NCBI GenBank assembly: GCA_010093995.1
Contig: ML992501.1
Location: 2,235,320-2,299,319, forward strand
Origin: Elsinoe ampelina
Lineage: Eukaryota
DNA length: 64,000 bases
Direction: 5' to 3'
Positions within the stretch are counted from its first letter, which is position 1; each line of letters starts with the position of its first letter. A program made the position numbers and the translations under genes. Positions 1-14,170 of the stretch are shown one piece after another. A model generated the notes under the pieces. That model was not told the DNA's origin. It saw only the letters and a program-made list of their open reading frames with translations, and made no database searches.

Positions 1-736
1 ATCTTAGCCCAATCCGCCAATTGAGACCCGCAATGCGGAGTGGCCATGAAAATTATGCCCCTTGTCGCCTCAACGATGCTTTTGAGATGCGGCTCGGCGC
101 TGTTCTTCGAGTACAGAAGCATCTGGATGACATGTCAGCTGGAGATCGGTGAATCATAGTTGCATGGCATACGTCCTCTACTACCAGTCCACCAAGACTA
201 TGAGCAATGAAGAACAAAGGTCGATCGGCCTGTGTTTTGTTGTAAGTATCGGACGATTCTTGTGCGACTTCAGAGTCGCCTCACCTCGCCTTCCGAGTCT
301 CGCTCATGAGCAAGGCTCGTAAGGAACGTTTGTGCATGGTCGCCTATCCTGCTTTGCGACACTGTGGACCACATGTGGCCAACGTCTGCATCGTAGCCGT
401 AAGTGAAAATGCGGGCATTTGGAAAATCACGTGGCAGCAGTTGCTCCGGCCAGAAACAAGATGTTGACCGATGAGTCCAAGTCGTCTCGCGATCACCGGT
501 GAGCCCATGGACCAACACTATGCTGATCTTGTCAATCATCGGAATATATCACATATCGACTCTGGAATGTCTTACTCTACTGCTCGGTTCTTGTTCGCTG
601 GCTCGCTGCACTGGAACATACCAAGCTCACCTCGCGGTCTGGCGGGAAGCTCCACTTCAGAACCACTTCCATCTTTCTCCGCATTTCGGCTCAGCTTCTT
701 CGGCTTGTCTTTCTTTTTGTCGTCTTTGAACGGCAT
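1..736 (-). CDS. SesB-like / PGAP1-DUF676-type alpha/beta hydrolase (lipase-like); 3' part runs off the window
   Basis: Spliced model from ATG at 736 with three GT-AG introns (~525-575, ~232-284, ~123-173): MPFKDDKK...NRAV-D-IVLVHGLTGDRETTW...FWPEQLLPRDFPNARIFTYGYDA...RPLFFIAHSLGGLVVED...TRGIIFMATPHCGS. The VHGL, TYGYDA, AHSLGG (nucleophile elbow) and TPHxGS motifs are typical of fungal SesB-like hydrolase domains. Confidence 0.85.
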
Positions 737-1533
737 CTTGACGTGCAGTGCGGGGTCACCTCCAACCGACTGTTAACAGTGTAAGAGGAAGATATATTCG
801 AGCTTGCGAGTTGACCGACTGAGCCCGTGTCTGCAATTTGAAACTGATGTAGAGGGCGCAGGGATAGTGCGTATCTATTCTGAGCACCTAGGGATACTCG
901 AGTGACCTTTTCAACAAGGATAGCAGGCTATGCAGACTACTGCAAGACCCATACAGACGGCCACATGCAGGCGTGTTTGCTCCCACGCAGCTCGCATTTC
1001 TTCCGCGGACCCCCAGCTTCTCATTGGGCAGTAGAACTTTGCCTTCTTTTCGGACGACATCAGCTGTGCTGAACTATTGAAGCCACATCGGTTGATGCGG
1101 CAGCCTCACTTTCAACAGCGGCTTGTCGCGAGCTGCGCTCGATAGTGCACACCATCTTCTGGGTAGTGCCGTTTCATGCCTGCAGGGAAGACTTTGGCTG
1201 GGACCTCAGCCCAAGCGCGCGGACCAGGTTACAGCGATTTGAAATGACGCTCGGCGAGGTTACCTGGATTCAGCCAATGATTGCGAGACCGACAATGCAC
1301 GAAGTTATGGCTGCAGGATTCACAGGTCTTCAGCCCATAAGCAGACCTCAGCCGGGGTCATGGAAAGGCACAGTCGTACGTTGCGCTGAAGGTCCATGGT
1401 GAGAAGGACCGACGCCAATATGTCTTAAAAGTGTCCTTGCATGTCCCGCCCAGGAGGAAGCGAATCAGTCATTCATGAAGCTCGCTGAAAGGATACCGGA
1501 CGATAACACAGACATACAAATGCTGGCCCAGTA

Positions 1534-4500
1534 ATGGAGAATCTCCGGGACAAGAAGAACTTCATTGTCGGCGGCCTCAGCAATGTAGGTCAGGCCTTCC
1601 AGGGGAACAGCATTGGCGTATTCCAGCAAACCGGTCAGTCTTTCGACTCGCTGTTGGCTTCCTCATCACTGACCATATTCAAGTCACTGCTGATCATGTT
1701 AATGAGAAGTTAGAGCAGTGCGTCGCTGCTCTATTCTCCACCGATCCCAGAAACACACGCAACACTCTGATAAGATCACATTATCAGTTCACCCACGAGA
1801 CCTGCCAGTGGATACTGCACAATGATGTCTTTCAGCGATGGTTCCAGGGCGAGCCACAGGAATCGCCACTCATTTGGATTTGTGACAAGCCAGGGCAGGG
1901 GAAGACAGCAATGGCGATTTACATTAGCAAACACCTCGAAGAAGTCTACAACGGCGATGACAACACCTGGGTTCTCTACTACTTCTGCGACGCGAATGAC
2001 GAACGGCGCAACAATGCCGTGTCAATCCTGCAGGGTCTCATGTACCTACTCTGCAAGAGAAGTCAAGGGCTAGCGTCAATTCTGTACGATGAATACAAAA
2101 TCCAGCGAGATCAACTTTTCCGCGAGCAATCCATGGAGACCCTCTGGGATGTTTTCAAGAACATGCTACGGGCTTGTGACGCGGAAAAGATATACTGCGT
2201 CATCGATGGCGTCGATCAGTGTAAAGAAGATACACTGAGACCTTTCCTGAACATGCTCAGCGAGTACTTTTCGTCGACCTCGTCAGAGTCAACCGTTCCG
2301 CCACCAAAACCCCTCGAGTCTAGAATTGCGGGCAGGGTCGGACCAGCTGTACGGCTCCTCGTTTCCAGCCGGCAAAGTCCGAGATGCATTGAGGAGGAGC
2401 TCGGTAAATACCCCAGGCTCGAGTTGCAGAGAGAGGTCGTCGACATGGGACGATTCATCGAGGCCAGCGTCGACAAAATATCAGCAGAACGCGAAGTGAG
2501 TGGCAAAGCCGACACTGAGACAAACGAGATCATCAGACAAACGCTTGCTGCTGGTGCCGAGCAGGGATACGTCTGGGTCAGCCTTGTGGCCGAGAAATTG
2601 TCCGGTATGAAGCAAAGTCAGGTTAGACGGGGCGCGGCAAAAATACCTCGCAGCGTTGACGAGATGTATTTGCAGACCTTACACGAAATCCCGTCACGAC
2701 AACGATCCGCTGCAGCTGCTCTGCTCATGTGGGCTGCCTTGTCGGAGAAGTCGCTCACGGTCTTAGAGTTGACCAAAGCCGTCAAGTACACCACGGGCAA
2801 GCCCTGGACGGTGAAGGACACCAGACGAATCTTGGACACCTCGAGCAGTGTAGTACGCCAGCATGCTAAGTACGTCAACTTATCCCACGCTTCCGTACTG
2901 GACTTTCTACGTGGCAAGGAATCGATACTGAGATTCGACAAGGACCTCCAAAATTTCATCATTGAAGAAAAAGAGGCACATGCACGTATGACAAATGCAT
3001 GCATCGCATATCTCCAGGCTAGTGGGAATCTGAAGAAAAGCAGGAGGGTGAAGATCAAGGGCATCGAGACACTGAGCAAGGAGGATAAAGCGTTCCTGCT
3101 CAAACACCCCTTCCTCGAGTACGCCATTGTGCAGTGGCCTTGGCATGCTAAGAAGGCTAGCATCGAGGGTACTCGCTACGATGTTCCCTTCTTTGAAGAA
3201 GATTCGATAAGGCGCCGTCTTTGGTGGGAGAGTTACTGGATTTCCTCACGGAGCTGGTGGTTTGCGTGGAAGTTCACCACTCCGGGTGACTTCTCACTCT
3301 TACATGTCGCCGCATTCTTCAACATCATTCCTCTGGCTCGACACATTGAGCGGAAAGGCCTCTTACGATCGCTCATCAATGCGGAAGATCATCAAGGTCT
3401 TCAACCCTTGAATTGGGCAACGGAAAATTGCCAGACCGAGATGGTGGAGTGGTTACTACAGCGTGGCGCTTACGATGAGGAAGCTTTACGACAAGCAGCT
3501 AGAACAGGCGACATCTCCATCATCAAAATGCTACTGCAGAATAGGCAAATCGCAGAGCATAACAAAGCTGGCAAGGTGTCATCCAGCTCGCCATCATTTA
3601 GCCCGAACTTGTTCAACTCTTTCAGGCGGGCGACACTAACGACCATCTCGGACTTGGCCAAGAAGTATGAAAGCCATGAAGACGAGACTCCCTCTGCATT
3701 ATCACCCCAGATCAGAGGCTATGGCGAGACCAAGTCAGAATCACCCCTGCATATCGCCGCGACTTATGGACACCGCGAAGCCATCGAGGTGTTCCTCACA
3801 AATGGAGAAGATGTCCACAAGACCACTGATGGAGGCTGGACAGCTCTACACAATGCTGCATGGTTTGGTAGAATCCCTGTCATTCACCGGCTCGTCTCCG
3901 CCAAGGCAGATCTCATGGCCCCGACAAACGAGGGCTTGACCCCCCTCCACTGTGCAGTCAAAAACCAAAAGCTTGAAAGCGTACAAGCTCTACTCGCATA
4001 CAAGCAGAAGGTTGACATTGAAGCCAAAGACAAGTACAGAAACCGACCTCTCCATCTCGCATGCAAAGTCGGCAACCTGCCGATCATCAAGCTGTTCCTG
4101 GACCACAAAGCAGATATAGAAGCGAAGATGCCGCCCGGCTGGACACCCTTGCTCTGGGCTTGTAGTGCAGGACAGCGCACGGTTGCAGAACTGCTACTCG
4201 AGCGTGGAGCCGACGCCAATGCTAAATGGATTCAGCTGACAAGTGACTCGAGGAGGATTGAGGTCGGTGCGGTCCAACTGGCCAGAACATATCGCCATGA
4301 GGATCTGGTCAGAGTCTTACAAGGCTTCAATGCTGCTGAGACACAGGCGGTGGACAACGAGGAAGTGCAGCAGATTGTAGCTGAGGAGACAGTCATTGAA
4401 TCGTACGAGGTCCCTCGGATCGAGGATCTCGCTACCGGCCCTGCAGTAGCACTGCCTGCGGATGATACAGGCGCAGACGAGGCCGAGATGGATGAGGAGG

Positions 4501-5357
4501 ATGCTGACGACGACACGAATAGCTCGGAGGACGACGGGATCGACGCTAACCCAGGAGAGACTGCTATCACATCACTGGATCACAATTCTGATGCGTCCGG
4601 GCAAAATGAGCCTACGCCCATTCACGGTCTTGGGATCTTGGAAAGCGATGAGCAGACCTTGAATTTCGCGGGGAAGGAACAACGGCAGAGTTCAAGTCAC
4701 ATTGCAGCCTCAACATCGATTTCATTACCGCACCTGGGTGACATTCCTCTTCAACCCGAAACGCCCCCGAAAACGGATGGCACGCCCTCTTTCAATCAAG
4801 CAGGCCTCAGTATCCCTAGGCGGCCTGTCTCTGGCGCGCCTACACCACCGTATCCATCCTCGAATCAGCTATCCACCACAACACCTCCTAGAGACATTAC
4901 TGAAACCCTCTCGAAGGCACTACAGCAGCACGACAGTCCACTCCCAGAAGGACCACGCGACAGTCCCATGAGTGGCGCCACCTCGACACCGTCACCACCG
5001 ATGGACCAACACAGATCGTCCAAACCAGACCAAAGCCCTTTGGCCGGCTTCACAAGCATCAAATCCAAATTCAGCCGGCGCGAAGCCGGCAACATCTTCA
5101 ACAAGAGATCGAACTCCGAGACCACCAACGACACGGCTGACCGATGTCCCATACCGGCCACCGTCCACGAGGTCCCACAGCTCGGCCCAAGTGCCTCGAG
5201 CAGTCCGACGCCTGCGGGTGAAGAAGACAAGACGACCACGACGGTCAGGAAGCCGCTGTTGTCCAGCGCTTTCAGCGATACTGCTGTGACGCTTACCAAG
5301 GGACTCAAGATGAAGTCCAGGCTGTTAGGGCGGAAGACCTCGGAGGGAGCAGGATGA
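1534..5357 (+). CDS. Fungal NLR (STAND) protein: short N-terminal motif, NACHT, helical region, ankyrin repeats, long acidic/Pro-Ser-rich tail (~1257 aa spliced)
   Basis: Exon 1 1534-1633, intron 1634-1683 (GTCAGT...CTGAC...AAG), exon 2 1684-5357. Pre-NACHT LFSTDP...ETCQWILHNDVFQRW, Walker A LIWICDKPGQGKT, VLYYFC, Walker B IYCVIDGVDQC, LLVSSR, HASVLDFL, PFLEYAIVQWPWHA. Ankyrin repeats SPLHIAA, TALHNAA, TPLHCAV, RPLHLAC, TPLLWAC. The ORF-track start at 1911 misses the P-loop. Confidence 0.9.
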
Positions 5358-5853: not shown

Positions 5854-8800
5854 TCACTGCCCCCAAACCGACGACTTGACACTCTGAAACGTCGACGACA
5901 CCGCCCCCGTCACATCCGACCCCGCACCACCATCCTCCCGTTTCCTCTGCCCAGAAAGCTTCTCTGTCAGCGCGTCTTTCCACGAATGCGGCGGAAGCAA
6001 ATTGCTCACCTCCATTTGAATGCCCCTATGCAGATGCACCAACCAATCGACGTAGCTCTGCGCCTCGCCGTTCCTGTCCTCGTACAACAAGCGGGCGAAC
6101 TCGAATTCCGCGCCGTCGAGACCCTGTCGTGCTAGCTGGATGGTCATGCCTTTGCTGCCGCGCGTCATTTCGAGGTATTGGATGATGTTTCGCACTTGTG
6201 CGTTGAGGTGGGTTTCGAGGATCGGCAGGGCAGACATGAATGGGTCGAGGTCTTGGAGGCCGTTGATGCCGGGGCCGAAGAGGTCTTCGAGGAGGTTGGG
6301 GGAGACTTGGGCGTGTAGCCAGATGAGGCATGTTTGGCCGTCGTCGACGATGTAGACGCCTCCGTCCTCGACTTGGGAGAAGCTAGCGCGAAGGGCGTGA
6401 GGCATTGTCAGGTGGCCATTTTCATTTGCAAAGCCGTCGGCTGGGTCGAGGTTGTGGATGCCGATGATGCGAGGATAGAGGTAGAGAGAAAGCTCTGTGA
6501 GACCCATCGCTCGAATCATCCGTACGTCGTGCACTCGTCGATCTGATGGCTCGCGACCGCCCTTGAAAGCCCGTGACTTGACAAGGCCGAGGACGTACAT
6601 AGAGAGCTCCTTGAGGTTCTCAGGCAAGACCAATTGTCCGGGAGGATGTGAGCCAGAAAAGTTTCTGCGATAGCCTGCGAGGATGTCGATTGTCTTTTCT
6701 GTGAGTGTGTTCCGGATATCTTTGACCGGCTTCTCAGTGACACGAGCTGCTGCTTCCTTCGCAATGATGCCAACCACAGCATCCTGGTCTACGAGCTTCA
6801 TGGCTTCAACAGCACCTTCACTGACCGAGGCGACGAAGTTGCTGCACCGTACCCGTCTCTCGCCACTCGCTGTAGTGTATAGCAGAGCCGACTGGAAGTG
6901 AGCGTCCAACTTAGGATCGAGCTTACCGTCATAAGTGAACACCACGCCGAGTGCCTTGTCCTGGTCAATGACGCCAATCTCGAGATCAGCACCAAAGGTG
7001 TGCTGCACAAAATTGCCATGATACGCAGATATTTGCAGCCCGTTCGAGCATCGGACTTTCATGAGAGCTTGGAAACCGGTATCTCGTGTCACAGTGTGCT
7101 TTATCTCCTTTGCCAGCTTCAACAGATCCCGTGGGGCGTGGAAATTGGGATAGTAGTAGATCTCACCACCAGTGGTCCCTGAGACGTGACCAATTGTGCC
7201 GAGGTCTAGGTAACCGCCACTTGGAGCAGCCATGAAGAAGTCCACGCCGATACCCGCTTCGACCATTTTCGAGGCGCACTTTTTCCATTCCGGATACTCC
7301 GTTGTGAACAGCTTCTTCTCCAGTTCAGTGTCCGAAGTCTGCTGAAGATCTCGCATGTAAAGTCGTCCTGGACCTTGCGTGGGCAGAGCAGATACCGAGC
7401 AGATCACCTTGCCACCTGTCGGAGTCAATGCCGCAAGGGCCGCCTCCAGAGTGGGTAGAAGTGAAGGATCTGGGCGTGGTATCCGAGAAAACATCTGGGG
7501 AATCTGTCGAAGTAGGTTCGTGATGATGGTTTTCGAGGGTGCCGGGTCGACAAAGAGGCCCTCGCTAAGGGGAACGAATGGCTCGGCAAGATCAGAAATG
7601 ATGATCATCTGCGCTTGTTCCAGCCGCGGGCTGATGTTGTAGAACTGTATCTCACGGTCGAAAGTTACGATTCCCACTTTGGCGCCTGGTGGTAGTCTTA
7701 CTGATCCACCTTCTGCCACCTCCTCTCCCTCTTCGGGAAATAGCGAACTGAGAATGCCCTCGCAGACGCCATGTAAGAAGCCTTTGTTTACAGCTTCGGC
7801 ACTGACATCAATCAAGAACAGCCAATTGATTGGCACTGGCTCCTTCGACCAGTACTCGCGGGGCACAGTGAATTCCACAGTACCTAGCATGAGTTCTTGC
7901 CTCTCTGCACGATCGACGCGTATGCCGCTGGGATCTGTCGGTGCAAAGTAATTAGATGGCACATCGTTCGGGTGCGTGCACATGTTGCAGACAAACTTGT
8001 TGCCACCAGCCTTGAAGATCATGAAGGGATTGATGTAAGCTCGACACCGCCGACACCTCGGTGGGCCTTCGTTGCCGAAATCGATGACTGGGATCGCTTG
8101 CTCGCCCTCTTGCAAGGGTGCCAAAGGTTGCAATATGAGTCCGAGAGGAAGTCCTGTTGATGCTAAAGCGTCTTGAGACGCCGGTATGTTGTTCATGGTG
8201 AGACGTGCATATTTGGGTGAGCAGTTCCCTTGGTCGAATGCGACGAATGGCACAGCAGCTGGCGGCGGAAGATGTTGTTCCATGGTAGGGTAGATGTGTT
8301 CCAGGTAGTATTTCGCAGGGAAGTCCCGTGATCGTGGTATGCTCGGTATTTGGTCTGGGTCCACTTTCCCCTGAGCTGACGCTGACCCGGGCGCTCCTAC
8401 GACTGCAGCACCCGGTGTGACTCCGGGCTGCACCGGAGCTGGGGCCGCAGCAGGTTGCTGTTGAAACTGAGTCGCCGGTGGAGCATACTGACTGCCTGCC
8501 GATGGCAATCGCTGTGACATGTACGGCCCTCCTGCACCTGGGCCAGCTATGTCCCCGTAGGGCGAAGCCACAGGCGGTGCGCCATTCGTTGCTTGTGGGC
8601 TCGGTGCTGGCTGCTCAAGCTGATGGTATGCATGTCTGTCCTTCTTTTTCCGCGGCGCCATTACTCCGGCCCCTCCACTGCCATCCAGACTCATCTGTCC
8701 CATCTGACCGCTCAACTGTCCCATACCTCCTTGCGCCTGCTGGCCGTACTGTTGCTGTTGCATGTTGGAATCGGAGCTTGGTTGTGGAGGGAAGTAACTG

Positions 8801-9009
8801 CCTGGTTCGCCAGGAGCCGTCAATGGCGCGGATGTAGGACCTAGGCCCGGAGGATGTTGTGAGTAAGACGAGCCTGTTTGTTGGTAGCCGCCCGGGCTGG
8901 GAGCTACAGGATATCGATTTTGCGGCTGTTTCTTTCTGGGTGCGAATTCGTCTCTTGGTGTGCTTGTCAGGCTGGATATCAGCGGAGAGCCCAGGGCGAA
9001 TTCTCCCAT
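5854..9009 (-). CDS. SEC24: COPII coat subunit Sec24 family (Sfb3/Lst1, SEC24C/D-like)
   Basis: Zn finger PPRCRRCRAYINPF...FVCNMC, trunk WLFLIDVS, beta-sandwich MKVRCSNGL...GERRVR, helical GQLVLPENLK, gelsolin-like region, Pro/Gln-rich N-terminus. Likely in-frame 51-nt intron at 5959-6009. True 5' end uncertain. Confidence 0.93.
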   Translation of the reverse strand: MGEFALGSPLISSLTSTPRDEFAPRKKQPQNRYPVAPSPGGYQQTGSSYSQHPPGLGPTSAPLTAPGEPGSYFPPQPSSDSNMQQQQYGQQAQGGMGQLSGQMGQMSLDGSGGAGVMAPRKKKDRHAYHQLEQPAPSPQATNGAPPVASPYGDIAGPGAGGPYMSQRLPSAGSQYAPPATQFQQQPAAAPAPVQPGVTPGAAVVGAPGSASAQGKVDPDQIPSIPRSRDFPAKYYLEHIYPTMEQHLPPPAAVPFVAFDQGNCSPKYARLTMNNIPASQDALASTGLPLGLILQPLAPLQEGEQAIPVIDFGNEGPPRCRRCRAYINPFMIFKAGGNKFVCNMCTHPNDVPSNYFAPTDPSGIRVDRAERQELMLGTVEFTVPREYWSKEPVPINWLFLIDVSAEAVNKGFLHGVCEGILSSLFPEEGEEVAEGGSVRLPPGAKVGIVTFDREIQFYNISPRLEQAQMIIISDLAEPFVPLSEGLFVDPAPSKTIITNLLRQIPQMFSRIPRPDPSLLPTLEAALAALTPTGGKVICSVSALPTQGPGRLYMRDLQQTSDTELEKKLFTTEYPEWKKCASKMVEAGIGVDFFMAAPSGGYLDLGTIGHVSGTTGGEIYYYPNFHAPRDLLKLAKEIKHTVTRDTGFQALMKVRCSNGLQISAYHGNFVQHTFGADLEIGVIDQDKALGVVFTYDGKLDPKLDAHFQSALLYTTASGERRVRCSNFVASVSEGAVEAMKLVDQDAVVGIIAKEAAARVTEKPVKDIRNTLTEKTIDILAGYRRNFSGSHPPGQLVLPENLKELSMYVLGLVKSRAFKGGREPSDRRVHDVRMIRAMGLTELSLYLYPRIIGIHNLDPADGFANENGHLTMPHALRASFSQVEDGGVYIVDDGQTCLIWLHAQVSPNLLEDLFGPGINGLQDLDPFMSALPILETHLNAQVRNIIQYLEMTRGSKGMTIQLARQGLDGAEFEFARLLYEDRNGEAQSYVDWLVHLHRGIQMEVSNLLPPHSWKDALTEKLSGQRKREDGGAGSDVTGAVSSTFQSVKSSVWGQ

Positions 9010-9584
9010 AATTCAATTGAAAGAGATCGCGATTCAGCTAAGCAATGCTTGAAGCTCTCCGCGGCCCATACATTTTTTGTAACACGTAGTCGAAATGTCC
9101 AAGGAGTGCGGGCAGTCCAATCGATGTCGTCTGGGCGATCGCTATCGTGTAGAGGTGACACTGGCCCCGCGCCGAGAGCGTAAAGAGTCGGAGATGGTGT
9201 GAATTTGATCAAAGGGGAGTGATATGGAGACGTGGAACTTTCATGGTTGCAGGTACCGCCAAGACACAGCAAGCATTCACACGGCTTCCGGAGTCACAAT
9301 GCCCGTTGCATATCAACCTCTATTTTGGGAACAGGGACGCATTATTGCCATCACGTTCTGATCTGTACAATGATGACTTCAATAGGTGCAAAAGCCAGTA
9401 AAGGTGCTCATGTCCGCGCGGCTAACGTGCATTCGCCTTGCGAGATACTATCTGAAACCCAAAGCCTCTATCATCCTCAAAATAGTGACCGAGATGCTGT
9501 CATGAATCGTGATCATTACATCCCCTTTCCCCTCAGTGAATTCATCCCTAATGCTCCAGAACTGTGCGCACCGACCACTCAGAA

Positions 9585-10790: not shown

Positions 10791-13355
10791 CTAGCCTTGC
10801 TTATCCCTCCTCTTCTTCGCCTTCCACTCCGCCTTCGCCACCCTCATCAGCAAATCCTCATCCTTGATCGGGATCCAGCTCGTCAACACCTTCATGGCGT
10901 TCTCGAAATCCGAGTCCAGCAAGATATCCCTCGTAGCATCAATCAGCGCCGCGCTAGCAGCGTGCAAAACATCAAGTTCCGCCCCATCAAACCCTTCCTC
11001 CCCTTCCTTGACCACCTTCCCCTCCCCATCCCCCAAAAGCATAAACACATCCCACACCCTCAACTGCGCGGGGAAGGGTATACTCATATTAAACAACGTC
11101 AAATACCACCTCGTCCCATACGCGGTGCCCCCGATCCCCAACTCCTCCAGTTTCGCCTTGACCTCCCCCCTCAACCATCCCCCCTCGAACTCCCCTAACG
11201 CCTCCATCAACCCCCCAAATCCATGCGCGAACAGCTTCTTCAACCCCCTCAACTCCCACAGCCGCACCATCATGACAAACGCCATCTCCTCGTCGAAATA
11301 ACACAGCAACGTCGTCGCCAAACTCGCCATGCCCTGCACGTACCCCGTCTCAGGGAACTTGAGCGCAATGCCATGCAGCACGCGGAACAACAACCTCTGC
11401 CCGCCCCTGTAGCGCTTGCGGAACATGACATGCATCCCGATACTCCGCGGGACATCGACGTCGATCTGGACGTCGTCGGCGCAATTCTCGCCCTGCAGGC
11501 GGTGGAACTCATCGATCAACTCCTCGTCGGTCTCGCCTACGTCGCGTCTCCGCTGGCTTTCGGCAAGGAAAGCGTGCCATGCCGTCGCTCGCCAGCGATC
11601 CGGGATGCCCTTCCACACGCGCCCGACCAGACGCGGATCGTGCACGTCGAAGGTGAAGGCCATGCCGCCTCCTTTGCCTTCTGCGCCGGGTCGGCGTTTG
11701 GCCATGCGTCGCCATTTCTCCTCGCGGGACCATTCGCGTCGGCGCAGCTTCTCGTCGGTGCGTCCGCCGTCTTCGGCTTCGGCAATGGATTCGAGTCCGG
11801 GGGGGAGGGTGAGCATGTCGCTTGCTTGGTCCATGAGGCGGCCGTAGCGGCCTTTGACTTCGAAGAGGGAGGAGCTGGTGCTGCGGAATGAGCGGACGCT
11901 GTTTTGGGTGCGGAGGGAGCGGGCGTCTTTTCCTGCTCCGGGTTTGGGTGGCACGGAGCGGGATGAGCGCTTGGTTGCGACGCTGGGGCCGCGACGGAGA
12001 GTGCGTTTCCTTCGGGGAGTATCGGCGACGATGCGGATGGAGGTGGAGACTCGTTGCATGCTGGATCGGGGAGCTGCTGTGGAAGACGTAGATGGGCGTG
12101 CAGTGGATGGACGATTGGAGCTCGTGGAGGTGCGGGATAGAGTGACGCTGGGCACGATGAAGCCGTAGCGGTCAACATCTCGAGCGGAGATGTCTTCGAA
12201 GTCTTCAATACCACCGGCTACTTCGGTGGAAGTCCGTGGAATCGAGGGAAGGCGGGAACCATTCGAAGGTCGGATGCGAGTTTTGGACGACGTCTTGCGG
12301 TGCTTGGGAATAGCCAGGGATGTGCTGTCTGGTTCGGGTGTTGTTGCTCTTTCTGTCATGGTGGACTCTGGTGTAATTGGCCGTATTGTGTTCTCGACGA
12401 TTGGGGAGGTGGTCCAGTCTGCTGCGTTCTCGTCGCCGTGATCATACATAGATCGCAGGCGAATGGAGTATGAGATCTCTTCTGCAGATAGCACGCGGCC
12501 TCCTTCTATCGCTGCTTGCAGCATGTGTATGCTTGGTTGCCGTCGTCCTGCTTGTAGTCGTTTTGGGCTCTGAGGTATCTCTTCCTGCACCGCAGACACC
12601 TTGGGAACGCTCTCTTGCGGAGCATCCTGTTGTACTTCCGACTTTTGCTCCTGTTCTGGCACTCTGATCTCAGGTAGCTCCGTGCTGCTCTCCTCCTTCT
12701 TCTCCGCCTCCCCGGTCAACAGCCCCTCCCTCTTCCCTCCAAGCAGCACACTCCCCCTGTTCGAGAACTCCAAATTCCCCATTCCACTCAACCCTTCCAG
12801 CTCTCCCTTTGGTATCTCCATGCTTATTCCATGAAATGACCTGATCCTCACGTGCTGCGGCACAGGTGGTGTCTCCTCCCTCTCCCTCTCCTCCAAAGCC
12901 TGCCTGACTTCGTCCGGAACACTCTTCTTCCTCAAGCGATTCTGCGCGGGCGAGCCACTCAGCCGTCGAAGTGAGGGCGACTTGCGTAGTGAGCTGAGCG
13001 TGCCCCTAGACGGCTGCCGAGGAAGTTCCGCTGGAGGTACAGCAGGAGCAACAACACCCGAGTTGCGCGCCCCGGCGTAGTCCTCGAAACGGGCGGTCGA
13101 GTGACTTCGCTCGATGGCCGAGTCGCGCTTGTCACTTGCGTGGGAATCCGGTGACCCAGCGAGGAGAGATGGGGACGTTTCTGGAGTCGTGGGCTTCGCG
13201 GGGAGAGTTGAGTGTTTGGACGAAGGGGGGGTGGTCGGCGTCGGGGTCTGGACTGCTGCTTGCGTGCGGAGAGACTTTAGCAAGTTAAAGTCATAAGGCG
13301 TTGGAGGTCTGTCGGCCGAGTCTGTTTTGCGAGTTGAGATGGTTTCGACGTCCAT
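10791..13355 (-). CDS. TBC-domain Rab GTPase-activating protein
   Basis: 854-aa ORF. C-terminal RVWKGIPDRWRATAW, QIDVDVPRS (Arg finger), GYVQGM (Gln finger), TRWYLTLF, LRVWDVF. Long disordered N-terminus containing DRYGF. Confidence 0.92.
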   Translation of the reverse strand: MDVETISTRKTDSADRPPTPYDFNLLKSLRTQAAVQTPTPTTPPSSKHSTLPAKPTTPETSPSLLAGSPDSHASDKRDSAIERSHSTARFEDYAGARNSGVVAPAVPPAELPRQPSRGTLSSLRKSPSLRRLSGSPAQNRLRKKSVPDEVRQALEEREREETPPVPQHVRIRSFHGISMEIPKGELEGLSGMGNLEFSNRGSVLLGGKREGLLTGEAEKKEESSTELPEIRVPEQEQKSEVQQDAPQESVPKVSAVQEEIPQSPKRLQAGRRQPSIHMLQAAIEGGRVLSAEEISYSIRLRSMYDHGDENAADWTTSPIVENTIRPITPESTMTERATTPEPDSTSLAIPKHRKTSSKTRIRPSNGSRLPSIPRTSTEVAGGIEDFEDISARDVDRYGFIVPSVTLSRTSTSSNRPSTARPSTSSTAAPRSSMQRVSTSIRIVADTPRRKRTLRRGPSVATKRSSRSVPPKPGAGKDARSLRTQNSVRSFRSTSSSLFEVKGRYGRLMDQASDMLTLPPGLESIAEAEDGGRTDEKLRRREWSREEKWRRMAKRRPGAEGKGGGMAFTFDVHDPRLVGRVWKGIPDRWRATAWHAFLAESQRRRDVGETDEELIDEFHRLQGENCADDVQIDVDVPRSIGMHVMFRKRYRGGQRLLFRVLHGIALKFPETGYVQGMASLATTLLCYFDEEMAFVMMVRLWELRGLKKLFAHGFGGLMEALGEFEGGWLRGEVKAKLEELGIGGTAYGTRWYLTLFNMSIPFPAQLRVWDVFMLLGDGEGKVVKEGEEGFDGAELDVLHAASAALIDATRDILLDSDFENAMKVLTSWIPIKDEDLLMRVAKAEWKAKKRRDKQG

Positions 13356-14170
13356 GGCTGGCCGATGTGAGGTGCCCCTGTCTGTGCTGCGAGGGCGGGT
13401 TGTCGTAGGTCAAATACACGTTCATCTGGCCAGCTGGGCTGAGGGGATTGCTCGGGCTCGTTCAGCCGGCGTCGAATTCAGCTGATTGAAGCGAGCACGT
13501 TGAGGCCGTAGAACAGGAGGCTGTCCGGGCTGAAGTTGTAAACGGATGGGGAGAGGCATGACCTTTGCTCCAGAGTGGGCTCAAAAGCAATTGCTGGTCC
13601 TGTTCCTGAGCATTGGTCATGTTCGCAGACGGCTTGTGCGAGTCTATCACAAATAAAGTCGCACTAGCTGGAGCCGAAGCAGCCCCTGGAAATTGCAACC
13701 GAAGATCTGGTTGCGGGCATGCTCCAATTGGGAAATGTCTTTGATTTGCTCTGCCAAAACAGTTCACCTCGTGCGGTGCGAGCACAGGTGCAAGATTATT
13801 ATGGAGCAGCACTCGGAGAGCAGCGTCGTCCGCCATGAAAGCTGAGCTTCTGCAGCATTTGACAGTCACGCCCACAACGTTGACAGCAATCTCACAAGCT
13901 TCAGATTCTTCGCTACACTCGATGACAGAAAACGAGAACATTTCATCGTCCGACGCATGACTGAACAATGCATCGCTTCGTAATACCCTATGCAGATGTA
14001 AAAGCAGTCGCTGATCGTAAGCATTGCGCCATGTGCAATTTCAAAGACCTTCTCATCATCCCCAATGCCATCTCTCCCTGCAAAGCGTTTTATTATTATG
14101 GACACGGCTCGTTCTTCAGCTCTGCCTGATGACTGCAAGAGCAAGCAGTCACGTCGAATCGTCCTTCTCT

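What the first reader, a model, noticed from the sequence alone, without database searches (positions are those of the whole stretch)
1534..1633. Hidden first exon of the NLR encodes a putative amyloid signalling motif not assignable to a known family
Seen: exon 1, absent from the ORF track, encodes MENLRDKKNFIVGGLSNVGQAFQGNSIGVFQQT and splices in frame via a 50-nt intron to the NACHT exon. The core NFIVGGLSNVGQAFQGNSIGVFQQ has no Pro or charged residues, and hydrophobic residues alternate with G/N/Q/S. Established: this position and composition match fungal amyloid signalling motifs (HRAM, sigma, PP/RHIM-like). Inference: it is a beta-arch-forming motif, possibly a new family, and its own exon makes it an exchangeable module.
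Basis: partly seen in the sequence, partly recalled or inferred. Interest (0 to 1): 0.75.

Follow-up and report, generated by a model that had tools for sequence, protein, structure and literature searches.

The report
Fungal receptor–lipase pair, unclassified shared motif
A small overlooked first exon gives a fungal immune receptor a short peptide that is repeated at the tail of the lipase-like enzyme encoded next door, the layout fungi use to switch on a partner by amyloid templating, and this peptide fits none of the written signatures of the known motif families.

Summary
Confirmed and extended. Exon 1 (1534-1633) splices in frame to a NACHT-ankyrin NLR; an RNA-run contig shows exactly this junction. 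The pair recurs in five loci, and cognate partners match best (1 of 120 permutations). This is the known sesB/het-eN architecture. The motif fails the written PP, sigma and PUASM cores and half of the HRAM positions tested, has no Pfam hit, and a 2022 survey's 16 profiles left the Elsinoe orthologue unlabelled. It keeps PP-like flanks and an HRAM4-like Q-G, so a divergent member of a known family is not excluded; the published HMMs could not be run. Amyloid formation is inferred, not shown. 'Exchangeable module' is unsupported: the exon stays with orthologous NLRs and no third copy was found in the genome. This scan noted the pair here (e1-7558522) and a similar pair in another genome (e1-7586242). 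New variant of a known kind.

The parts
1534..1633 (+). NLR exon 1: 33 codons plus 1 nt; carries the motif (core about 1558-1629)
   Evidence: translation; junction in RNA-run contig; related N-termini in P0001, P0004, P0007, P0026/L005
1634..1683 (+). 50-nt phase-1 intron, GTCAGT...CTGAC...CAAG
   Evidence: phase-1 intron after the motif also predicted in L005 and L006
1684..5357 (+). NLR exon 2: NACHT-type domain (NPHP3_N E 8e-33; NACHT 1.4e-4, below cut-off), ankyrin repeats, acidic/Pro-rich tail
576..736 (-). SesB-like alpha/beta hydrolase exon 1 (ATG 736, 798 nt from the NLR ATG, head to head)
   Evidence: same 376-aa length as database protein P0035; intron 523-575 not seen spliced
285..522 (-). 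hydrolase exon 2
   Evidence: intron 230-284 spliced in runs X1 and X2
173..229 (-). hydrolase exon 3 with the AHSLGG nucleophile elbow (Ser144)
   Evidence: intron 123-172 spliced in X2
1..122 (-). start of hydrolase exon 4. The gene continues about 600 nt beyond the window start; the last exon (L001 1255-896) ends with the matching motif, whose first Asn is at G000:C1:2234828
   Evidence: last intron predicted (homology, P0035) but not seen spliced
1475..1534 (+). 19-codon upstream ORF (ATGs at 1475 and 1520) whose TAA overlaps the NLR ATG (TAATG); role unknown, overlap not found in L005 or L006
   Evidence: X1 contig begins at window 1466

Best explanation
A two-gene NLR amyloid-signalling module. 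Shown: the spliced NLR starts with a short uncharged G/N/Q/S-rich motif. The divergently transcribed SesB-like hydrolase ends with a matching motif, and the two co-vary across fungi. Inferred from the NWD2/HET-S, PNT1/HELLP/SBP and het-eN/sesB models: ligand binding by the ankyrin repeats oligomerises the NACHT domain; the clustered N-terminal motifs nucleate a cross-beta fold; that fold templates the hydrolase tail, clustering or unmasking the enzyme (Ser144, Glu247 and His278 are invariant in A2) to give a defence or cell-death output. The motif, N-h-h-x-G-x-h-x-N-h-G-x-h-F-Q-G-x(3)-G-T-h (h = hydrophobic), is most likely a family or subfamily not yet described (about 0.6 of this reading).
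For: Pair match: score 68, 11 of 18 identical, 0 of 10,000 shuffles in each of 4 schemes; best non-self piece among 3,427 six-frame pieces, next best 33. Adjacent locus tags in Elsinoe australis (B9Z65_5959/5960; second strain TKX20439/20440) and Elasticomyces elasticus (LTR17_008049/008050). Head-to-head pairs in L005 and L006. All 5 cognate pairs beat 5,000 shuffles each, and the cognate assignment is the best of 120 permutations. Both Elsinoe partners share a one-residue insertion; both L005 partners read FQNS where most read FQG. Flanking genes differ from the window's in 2 of 2 loci with DNA while the pair is kept. PMC9815663 names the paired occurrence as the identifying criterion.
Against: No experiment or beta-arch predictor was run. 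PMC8086366 reports a computationally picked sigma-like peptide that did not aggregate. Cognate preference is not perfect: the window's peptide scores 69 on the Elasticomyces tail against 68 on its own, and the L006 NLR peptide scores 50 on the window's tail against 46 on its own. Five related pairs are not independent and no tree was built. The hydrolase's last intron, which joins the motif exon to the enzyme, was not seen spliced; antisense joints were seen there instead. The L005 NLR copy has 2 charges and a Pro, and P0007 has a Pro. Six of the 9 closest NLR hits show no motif; their models appear to begin at or after exon 2, and their DNA was not seen.
Confidence: 0.82

Rival explanations
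1. Same mechanism, but the motif is a divergent PP (Ses_B) member whose central triplet has gained a residue.
For: PP also sits on SesB-type hydrolases. A loosened left flank [FYLI]xGx(1-3)Nx[GA] matches 5 of 10 instances and the right flank GxNxGxh 4 of 10.
Against: NxGxQxGxN and G-h-Q-h-G match 0 of 10; Q sits directly before G/N in 11 of 11. No PF17046 hit. NLR07/39 profiles did not label PSK36145.1. Caveat: Pfam also missed P0288, whose tail looks PP-like by eye, so the Pfam test has no working positive control.
Confidence: 0.15
2. Same mechanism, but the motif is a single-copy, uncharged HRAM variant close to HRAM4, which has Q just before the conserved G.
For: In HRAM numbering (PMC4518210): hydrophobic 5 in 10 of 11, 10 in 9 of 11, 16 in 10 of 11; Q18 in 11 of 11; G19 in 8 of 11. 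Single-copy HRAM-like NLR12 motifs occur on enzymatic effectors.
Against: Position 3 N/Q/H 0 of 11; position 8 is G in 11 of 11 where HRAMs are hydrophobic; G12 0 of 11; R/K15 0 of 11; almost no charges for salt bridges. Single copy in each effector tail. NLR12/13/40 did not label PSK36145.1.
Confidence: 0.13
3. The motif belongs to a minor published motif with no written consensus (NLR34, NLR39, PF01048_015) or to a bacterial BASS family.
For: These logos are figures or HMM files that could not be read.
Against: All 16 NLR-side profiles were run on PSK36145.1 with no hit. PF01048_015 is reported only with PNP_UDP effectors. The BASS3 core G-h-Q-h-G is absent. The Elsinoe copy has an insertion, so its miss may not extend to the window's copy.
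Confidence: 0.1
4. The shared peptide is a non-amyloid interaction motif, or a relic of fission of an ancestral hydrolase-NACHT fusion.
For: The profile search returned many long proteins (>700 aa) with the hydrolase at the N-terminus, and fused SesB-like NLRs are abundant in the literature. No fold evidence was obtained here.
Against: The genes are head to head, not collinear. The motif is kept and co-varies while the adjacent linker diverges. The motif HMM finds no internal copy in any long fusion among 297 sequences. A 24-residue G/N/Q-rich piece is unlikely to fold as a globular domain (inference).
Confidence: 0.12

Closest known systems
het-eN / sesB / sesA locus of Nectria haematococca (sigma motif; Pfam NACHT_sigma PF17106)
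   Same: NACHT-ankyrin NLR next to an alpha/beta-hydrolase gene; shared terminal motif; motifs more alike within a cluster than between orthologues; 5' intron overlooked in annotation (PMC3321046)
   Different: No GxGxQFNxx or GGTQNINT sub-motifs, no threefold repeat, about 24 residues against about 40; no SesA partner recognised in the stretches looked at
PNT1 / HELLP / SBP with the PP motif (Pfam Ses_B PF17046; RHIM-like)
   Same: SesB-type lipase effector; motif near the NLR start; similar length; FxG..NxG and GxNxG flanks in some instances
   Different: Defining G-h-Q-h-G centre absent in 10 of 10 tested; the centre is G-x-h-F-Q-G; no HeLo-like partner recognised
NWD2 / HET-S and the HRAM1-5 motifs
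   Same: Divergent gene pair; single motif at the NLR N-terminus; hydrophobic 5/10/16, G19, and Q18 as in HRAM4
   Different: Effector is a hydrolase, not HeLo; single copy; invariant G at 8; no R/K15; essentially uncharged
PUASM (NLR32)
   Same: Short uncharged G-rich motif on an enzymatic effector encoded beside the NLR
   Different: FxGxGxQxxGxGxF absent in 10 of 10; PUASM is reported only with PNP_UDP

Membership tests
NLR amyloid-signalling gene pair (architecture) | NLR with a short N-terminal motif in place of an effector domain | tested here: met
NLR amyloid-signalling gene pair (architecture) | same motif at the C-terminus of an effector encoded by the adjacent gene | tested here: met
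   5 of 5 pairs examined
NLR amyloid-signalling gene pair (architecture) | motifs more alike within pairs than across | tested here: met
   best of 120 permutations; 2 of 5 rows have a higher non-cognate score; relatedness not corrected
NLR amyloid-signalling gene pair (architecture) | beta-arch / cross-beta fibrils and templating | not testable with these tools
   no ArchCandy, PCFG or ASMscan available; needs experiment
PP / Ses_B | core NxGxQxGxN (G-h-Q-h-G) | tested here: not met
   0 of 10
PP / Ses_B | flanks FxGx(x)NxG and GxNxGxL | tested here: inconclusive
   loosened patterns match 5 of 10 and 4 of 10
PP / Ses_B | Pfam PF17046 match | tested here: inconclusive
   no hit, but no positive control rang
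sigma | sub-motifs GxGxQFNxx / GGTQNINT repeated three times | tested here: not met
   0 of 10, also for loose GxGxQ; PF17106 no candidate in the genome
HRAM / HET-s | hydrophobic at 5, 10, 16 and 18 (Q in HRAM4), G at 19 | tested here: met
   10, 9, 10, 11 (all Q) and 8 of 11
HRAM / HET-s | hydrophobic at 8; N/Q/H at 3; R/K at 15 | tested here: not met
   0 of 11 each
HRAM / HET-s | two repeats in a HeLo-type effector | tested here: not met
   one copy per tail; hydrolase effector
PUASM | FxGxGxQxxGxGxF with a PNP_UDP effector | tested here: not met
   0 of 10; effector is DUF676
16 motif HMMs of PMC9815663 (NLR05-44) | domain E-value <= 0.01 | not testable with these tools
   HMM files unreadable; indirect: authors' table gives orthologue PSK36145.1 'noasm'
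BASS1-10 | family profiles | not tested
   only the BASS3 written core was tested and is absent; logos not visible
SesB-like alpha/beta hydrolase | AB-hydrolase fold with nucleophile elbow and catalytic His | tested here: met
   DUF676 31.5 bits over cut-off 20.3; S144, E247, H278 invariant in 6 of 6; triad assignment is inference

The most novel reading that the evidence does not exclude
A fifth fungal amyloid-signalling family, tied to SesB hydrolases. The strict form seen here would be one branch of a wider set of unclassified G/N-rich hydrolase tails across Pezizomycotina (L006 pair; P0039, P0040, P0042, P0045, P0051, P0056, P0065). It was missed because gene models drop the tiny NLR first exon, and it mixes PP-like flanks with an HRAM4-like centre, so it may link those two families.
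Probability: 0.45. Interest if true: 0.66.

Novelty: new variant of a known kind. Interest (0 to 1): 0.52.

Why it matters
Only four fungal signalling-motif families are described (PMC12261475), against ten in bacteria. A conserved, co-varying receptor/enzyme pair with another motif gives two 24-residue peptides that can be tested directly. It is also a one-receptor, one-hydrolase system for asking how amyloid templating controls a SesB enzyme, which I did not find settled in the passages read. It also shows a survey bias: 6 of the 9 closest NLR database models lack the N-terminal piece, so protein-based motif counts are probably underestimates.

Tried and rejected
Pfam on the peptides and tails: no motif family. 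PF17046 and PF17106 on the own genome: no candidates; these negatives lack a positive control. ESM Atlas with the tail and the 33-mer: no usable hit, which says nothing either way. A protein search of the genome with the 33-mer found only itself and missed the known partner, so it is insensitive. A homologue search with the hydrolase's last exon found only the genome's own protein. String searches of the 2022 supplements for motif words and accessions were blank or irrelevant; files 2 and 8 are cut, and a PP control word also gave 0, so these blanks are uninformative. The profile search of 1.84 billion proteins was run with the whole-hydrolase alignment, not a motif-only profile; of its 150 listed hits none added a strict-family motif, so occurrence on other effector domains is untested. 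The run search listed no holder on record as RNA. One search took the L006 tail in the wrong frame; corrected. PDB sequence search: one weak esterase hit (6wpx, E 3e-4). No fold or complex prediction was sent, because the tool text says filaments are rarely worth a job. Exon shuffling as an explanation was rejected for lack of evidence. Literature searches showed no paper describing this motif; the library lacks most subscription papers.

Full report
OBSERVATION. A 50-nt intron (1634-1683) joins it in phase 1 to the long frame ending at 5357, giving 1258 aa. That frame holds a NACHT-type domain and ankyrin repeats. Four public runs guessed to be RNA were laid on the locus as assembled contigs. 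One (X1) has a contig skipping exactly these 50 nt with GT..AG ends; the other three have no cover there. Other GT/GC-AG choices are possible on paper, but this was the only joint seen in the NLR part covered. The 24-residue core has no charge or proline; its hydrophobic pattern is irregular rather than strictly alternating.

THE PARTNER. 798 nt upstream, on the other strand, a five-exon gene starts at window 736 and runs about 600 nt past the window start. My splice model gives 376 aa, the same length as database protein P0035. It is a DUF676 alpha/beta hydrolase, and one homologue is named sesB-related by its source. Two of its four introns were seen spliced; the first and last were not. Its last exon ends in NFMIGSQSNIGQVFQGNN, against NFIVGGLSNVGQAFQGNS in NLR exon 1. 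That is 11 of 18 identical, score 68; 0 of 10,000 shuffles reach it in each of four schemes, and it is the best non-self piece of 3,427 six-frame pieces from the window and two adjoining stretches (next best 33). A DNA pattern built from the two copies finds only these two places in the 28-Mb genome at up to one mismatch. A local motif HMM finds no other copy in 6,408 pieces from 30 sources, including 25 of the 48 NACHT-type matches in the genome.

CONSERVATION. Of the 9 closest NLR hits (30-49% identity), 3 begin with a related peptide (P0001 Elsinoe australis, P0004 unnamed, P0007 Elasticomyces elasticus). The other 6 appear to begin at or after the exon-2 boundary; a cluster mate of one (P0026, Extremus antarcticus) has a shortened copy. 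Of 120 hydrolase hits listed, 5 carry the strict motif at the C-terminus: the genome's own, Elsinoe, Vermiconidia, Elasticomyces and Saxophila. The Elsinoe and Elasticomyces genes have consecutive locus tags. A metagenome scan returned 2 loci, both head-to-head hydrolase/NLR pairs with a motif on a separate first exon and a predicted phase-1 intron: L005 (NLR 99.9% identical to P0026; GT or GC donor, both phase 1) and L006. No neighbour of the window's pair matched in either locus within the flanks held. For the five pairs, each match beats 5,000 shuffles, and the cognate assignment is the best of 120 permutations (299 against a mean of 220), though in two rows a non-cognate tail scores slightly higher. 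Both Elsinoe partners share an inserted residue, and both L005 partners share G-to-N after FQ. The pairs are related and no tree was built. That the named genera with the strict motif are mostly Dothideomycetidae is my recollection; the paper's table gives only Dothideomycetes, for Elsinoe.

THE MOTIF. Eleven strict instances (5 NLR-side, 6 hydrolase-side) align as N-h-h-x-G-x-h-x-N-h-G-x-h-F-Q-G-x(3)-G-T-h. One G and the Q are invariant, the central N is in 10 of 11 and the F in 10 of 11. The HMM scores members 29-59 bits, largely by construction, against at most 4.7 for reversed sequences. The L006 NLR peptide scores 12.7, P0122 8.7 and the L006 tail 7.8, a weak bridge to a looser class of tails. 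The L006 tail resembles P0040, P0056 and P0039 most; the NLR partners of those proteins were not seen.

FAMILY. Written signatures: PP FxGx(x)NxGLQLxGxNxGxL and sigma GxGxQFNxx/GGTQNINT (PMC3321046), PP core NxGxQxGxN and PUASM FxGxGxQxxGxGxF (PMC9815663), HRAM positions (PMC4518210). PP core, G-h-Q-h-G, sigma and PUASM match 0 of 10 instances tested. Loosened PP flanks match 5 and 4 of 10. HRAM positions 5, 10, 16, 18 (as the Q of HRAM4) and 19 are mostly met; 3, 8, 12 and 15 are met in 0 of 11; position 20 in 4 of 11. Pfam gave no motif hit, but without a working positive control. The best external test is the 2022 survey, which scanned all NLR N-termini with its 16 profiles and lists the Elsinoe orthologue PSK36145.1 as not clustered, 'noasm'; its partner PSK36144.1 is absent from the files searched. 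That copy has an insertion, so the miss may not carry over. The motif therefore works like an amyloid signalling motif by the field's pairing criterion, fails a defining feature of each named family, and resembles PP and HRAM4 in parts.

MECHANISM. Shown: splicing, the pair, conservation, co-variation, and invariant Ser144/Glu247/His278 in six aligned hydrolases. Inferred from the known systems: ligand-induced NLR oligomerisation, amyloid nucleation by the N-termini, templating of the hydrolase tail, enzyme activation, and a defence or death output. The ligand and the substrate are unknown.

EXCHANGEABLE EXON. Not supported. The exon position is conserved, but the motif stays with orthologous NLRs, and no other NLR examined in the genome carries it. 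The looser L006 motif could be divergence or a swap. An overlooked 5' intron was already noted for het-eN.

PAPERS SEEN. PMC9815663: outline, sections 6, 19, 24, 28, 48 (part 1 of 2), 61; S3 Table whole, S5 Table and S1 Text part 1 of 3 each, string searches of the supplements (S1 Table and S2 Data are cut); HMM and FASTA supplements and figures unreadable, and these bear directly on novelty. PMC5485727: parts 1-2 of 4. PMC12261475: part 1 of 6. PMC3321046, PMC4518210, PMC4986451, PMC8086366, PMC12881547 and bioRxiv 10.1101/2020.01.06.895854: passages only. Searches showed no description of this motif; the library is incomplete.

EARLIER NOTES OF THE SCAN. e1-7558522 noted this same pair from the neighbouring window. 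e1-7586242 reports a similar unclassified pair in another genome; whether it is the same motif was not checked. Neither counts as evidence.

VERDICT. Real feature; known architecture; motif probably undescribed. Amyloid-signalling pair 0.82; new variant of a known kind; interest 0.52.

Noticed in passing
L001:800-1701 (+), mostly just outside the window start: Two GT..AG joints on the + strand (introns L001 1264-1321 and 1399-1449) in run X1 indicate a spliced antisense transcript over the 3' half of the hydrolase gene, including the motif exon; no ORF over 44 codons in the part examined.
   Followed up: partly
window 1475-1536: 19-codon upstream ORF whose stop overlaps the NLR start (TAATG); overlap not present in L005 or L006.
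   Followed up: partly
window about 1880-2225 (NACHT): Non-canonical nucleotide-binding motifs: P-loop reads DKPGQGKT (D for the first G, also in 7 of 10 relatives) and Walker B reads IDGVDQC (Q in place of the usual E in 5 of the 9 relatives where this motif was captured). Hydrolysis may be altered; not tested.
   Followed up: partly
C-termini of P0039-P0294: Many SesB-like hydrolases end in varied G/N/Q-rich 20-30-residue tails (several recurring types, e.g. P0099/P0100/P0212, P0107/P0112, P0045/P0051/P0065); 0 of 183 short ones match the strict PP, sigma or PUASM patterns; P0288 looks PP-like. Possibly more unclassified motifs.
   Followed up: partly
L005:4947-4998: The full motif in L005 needs a GC-AG intron; the database model P0026 uses an upstream GT donor that truncates it.
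   Followed up: partly
window 2841 onward: A 6.3-kb X1 contig of high mean depth starts in the middle of the NLR and runs on towards the convergent Sec24-like gene (5854-9012, -; name recalled), suggesting overlapping transcripts.
   Followed up: no
L001:1-450 (-); window 10791-13409 (-): A ribosomal uL15/L28-like gene lies within about 450 nt of the hydrolase stop, and a TBC-type GAP-like ORF lies further along; both names are recalled from the translations, not from a call.
   Followed up: no
G000:C2:1442410-1443992: A second SesB-like hydrolase match lies directly upstream of a NACHT-type match on the same strand, probably a fused hydrolase-NLR.
   Followed up: no
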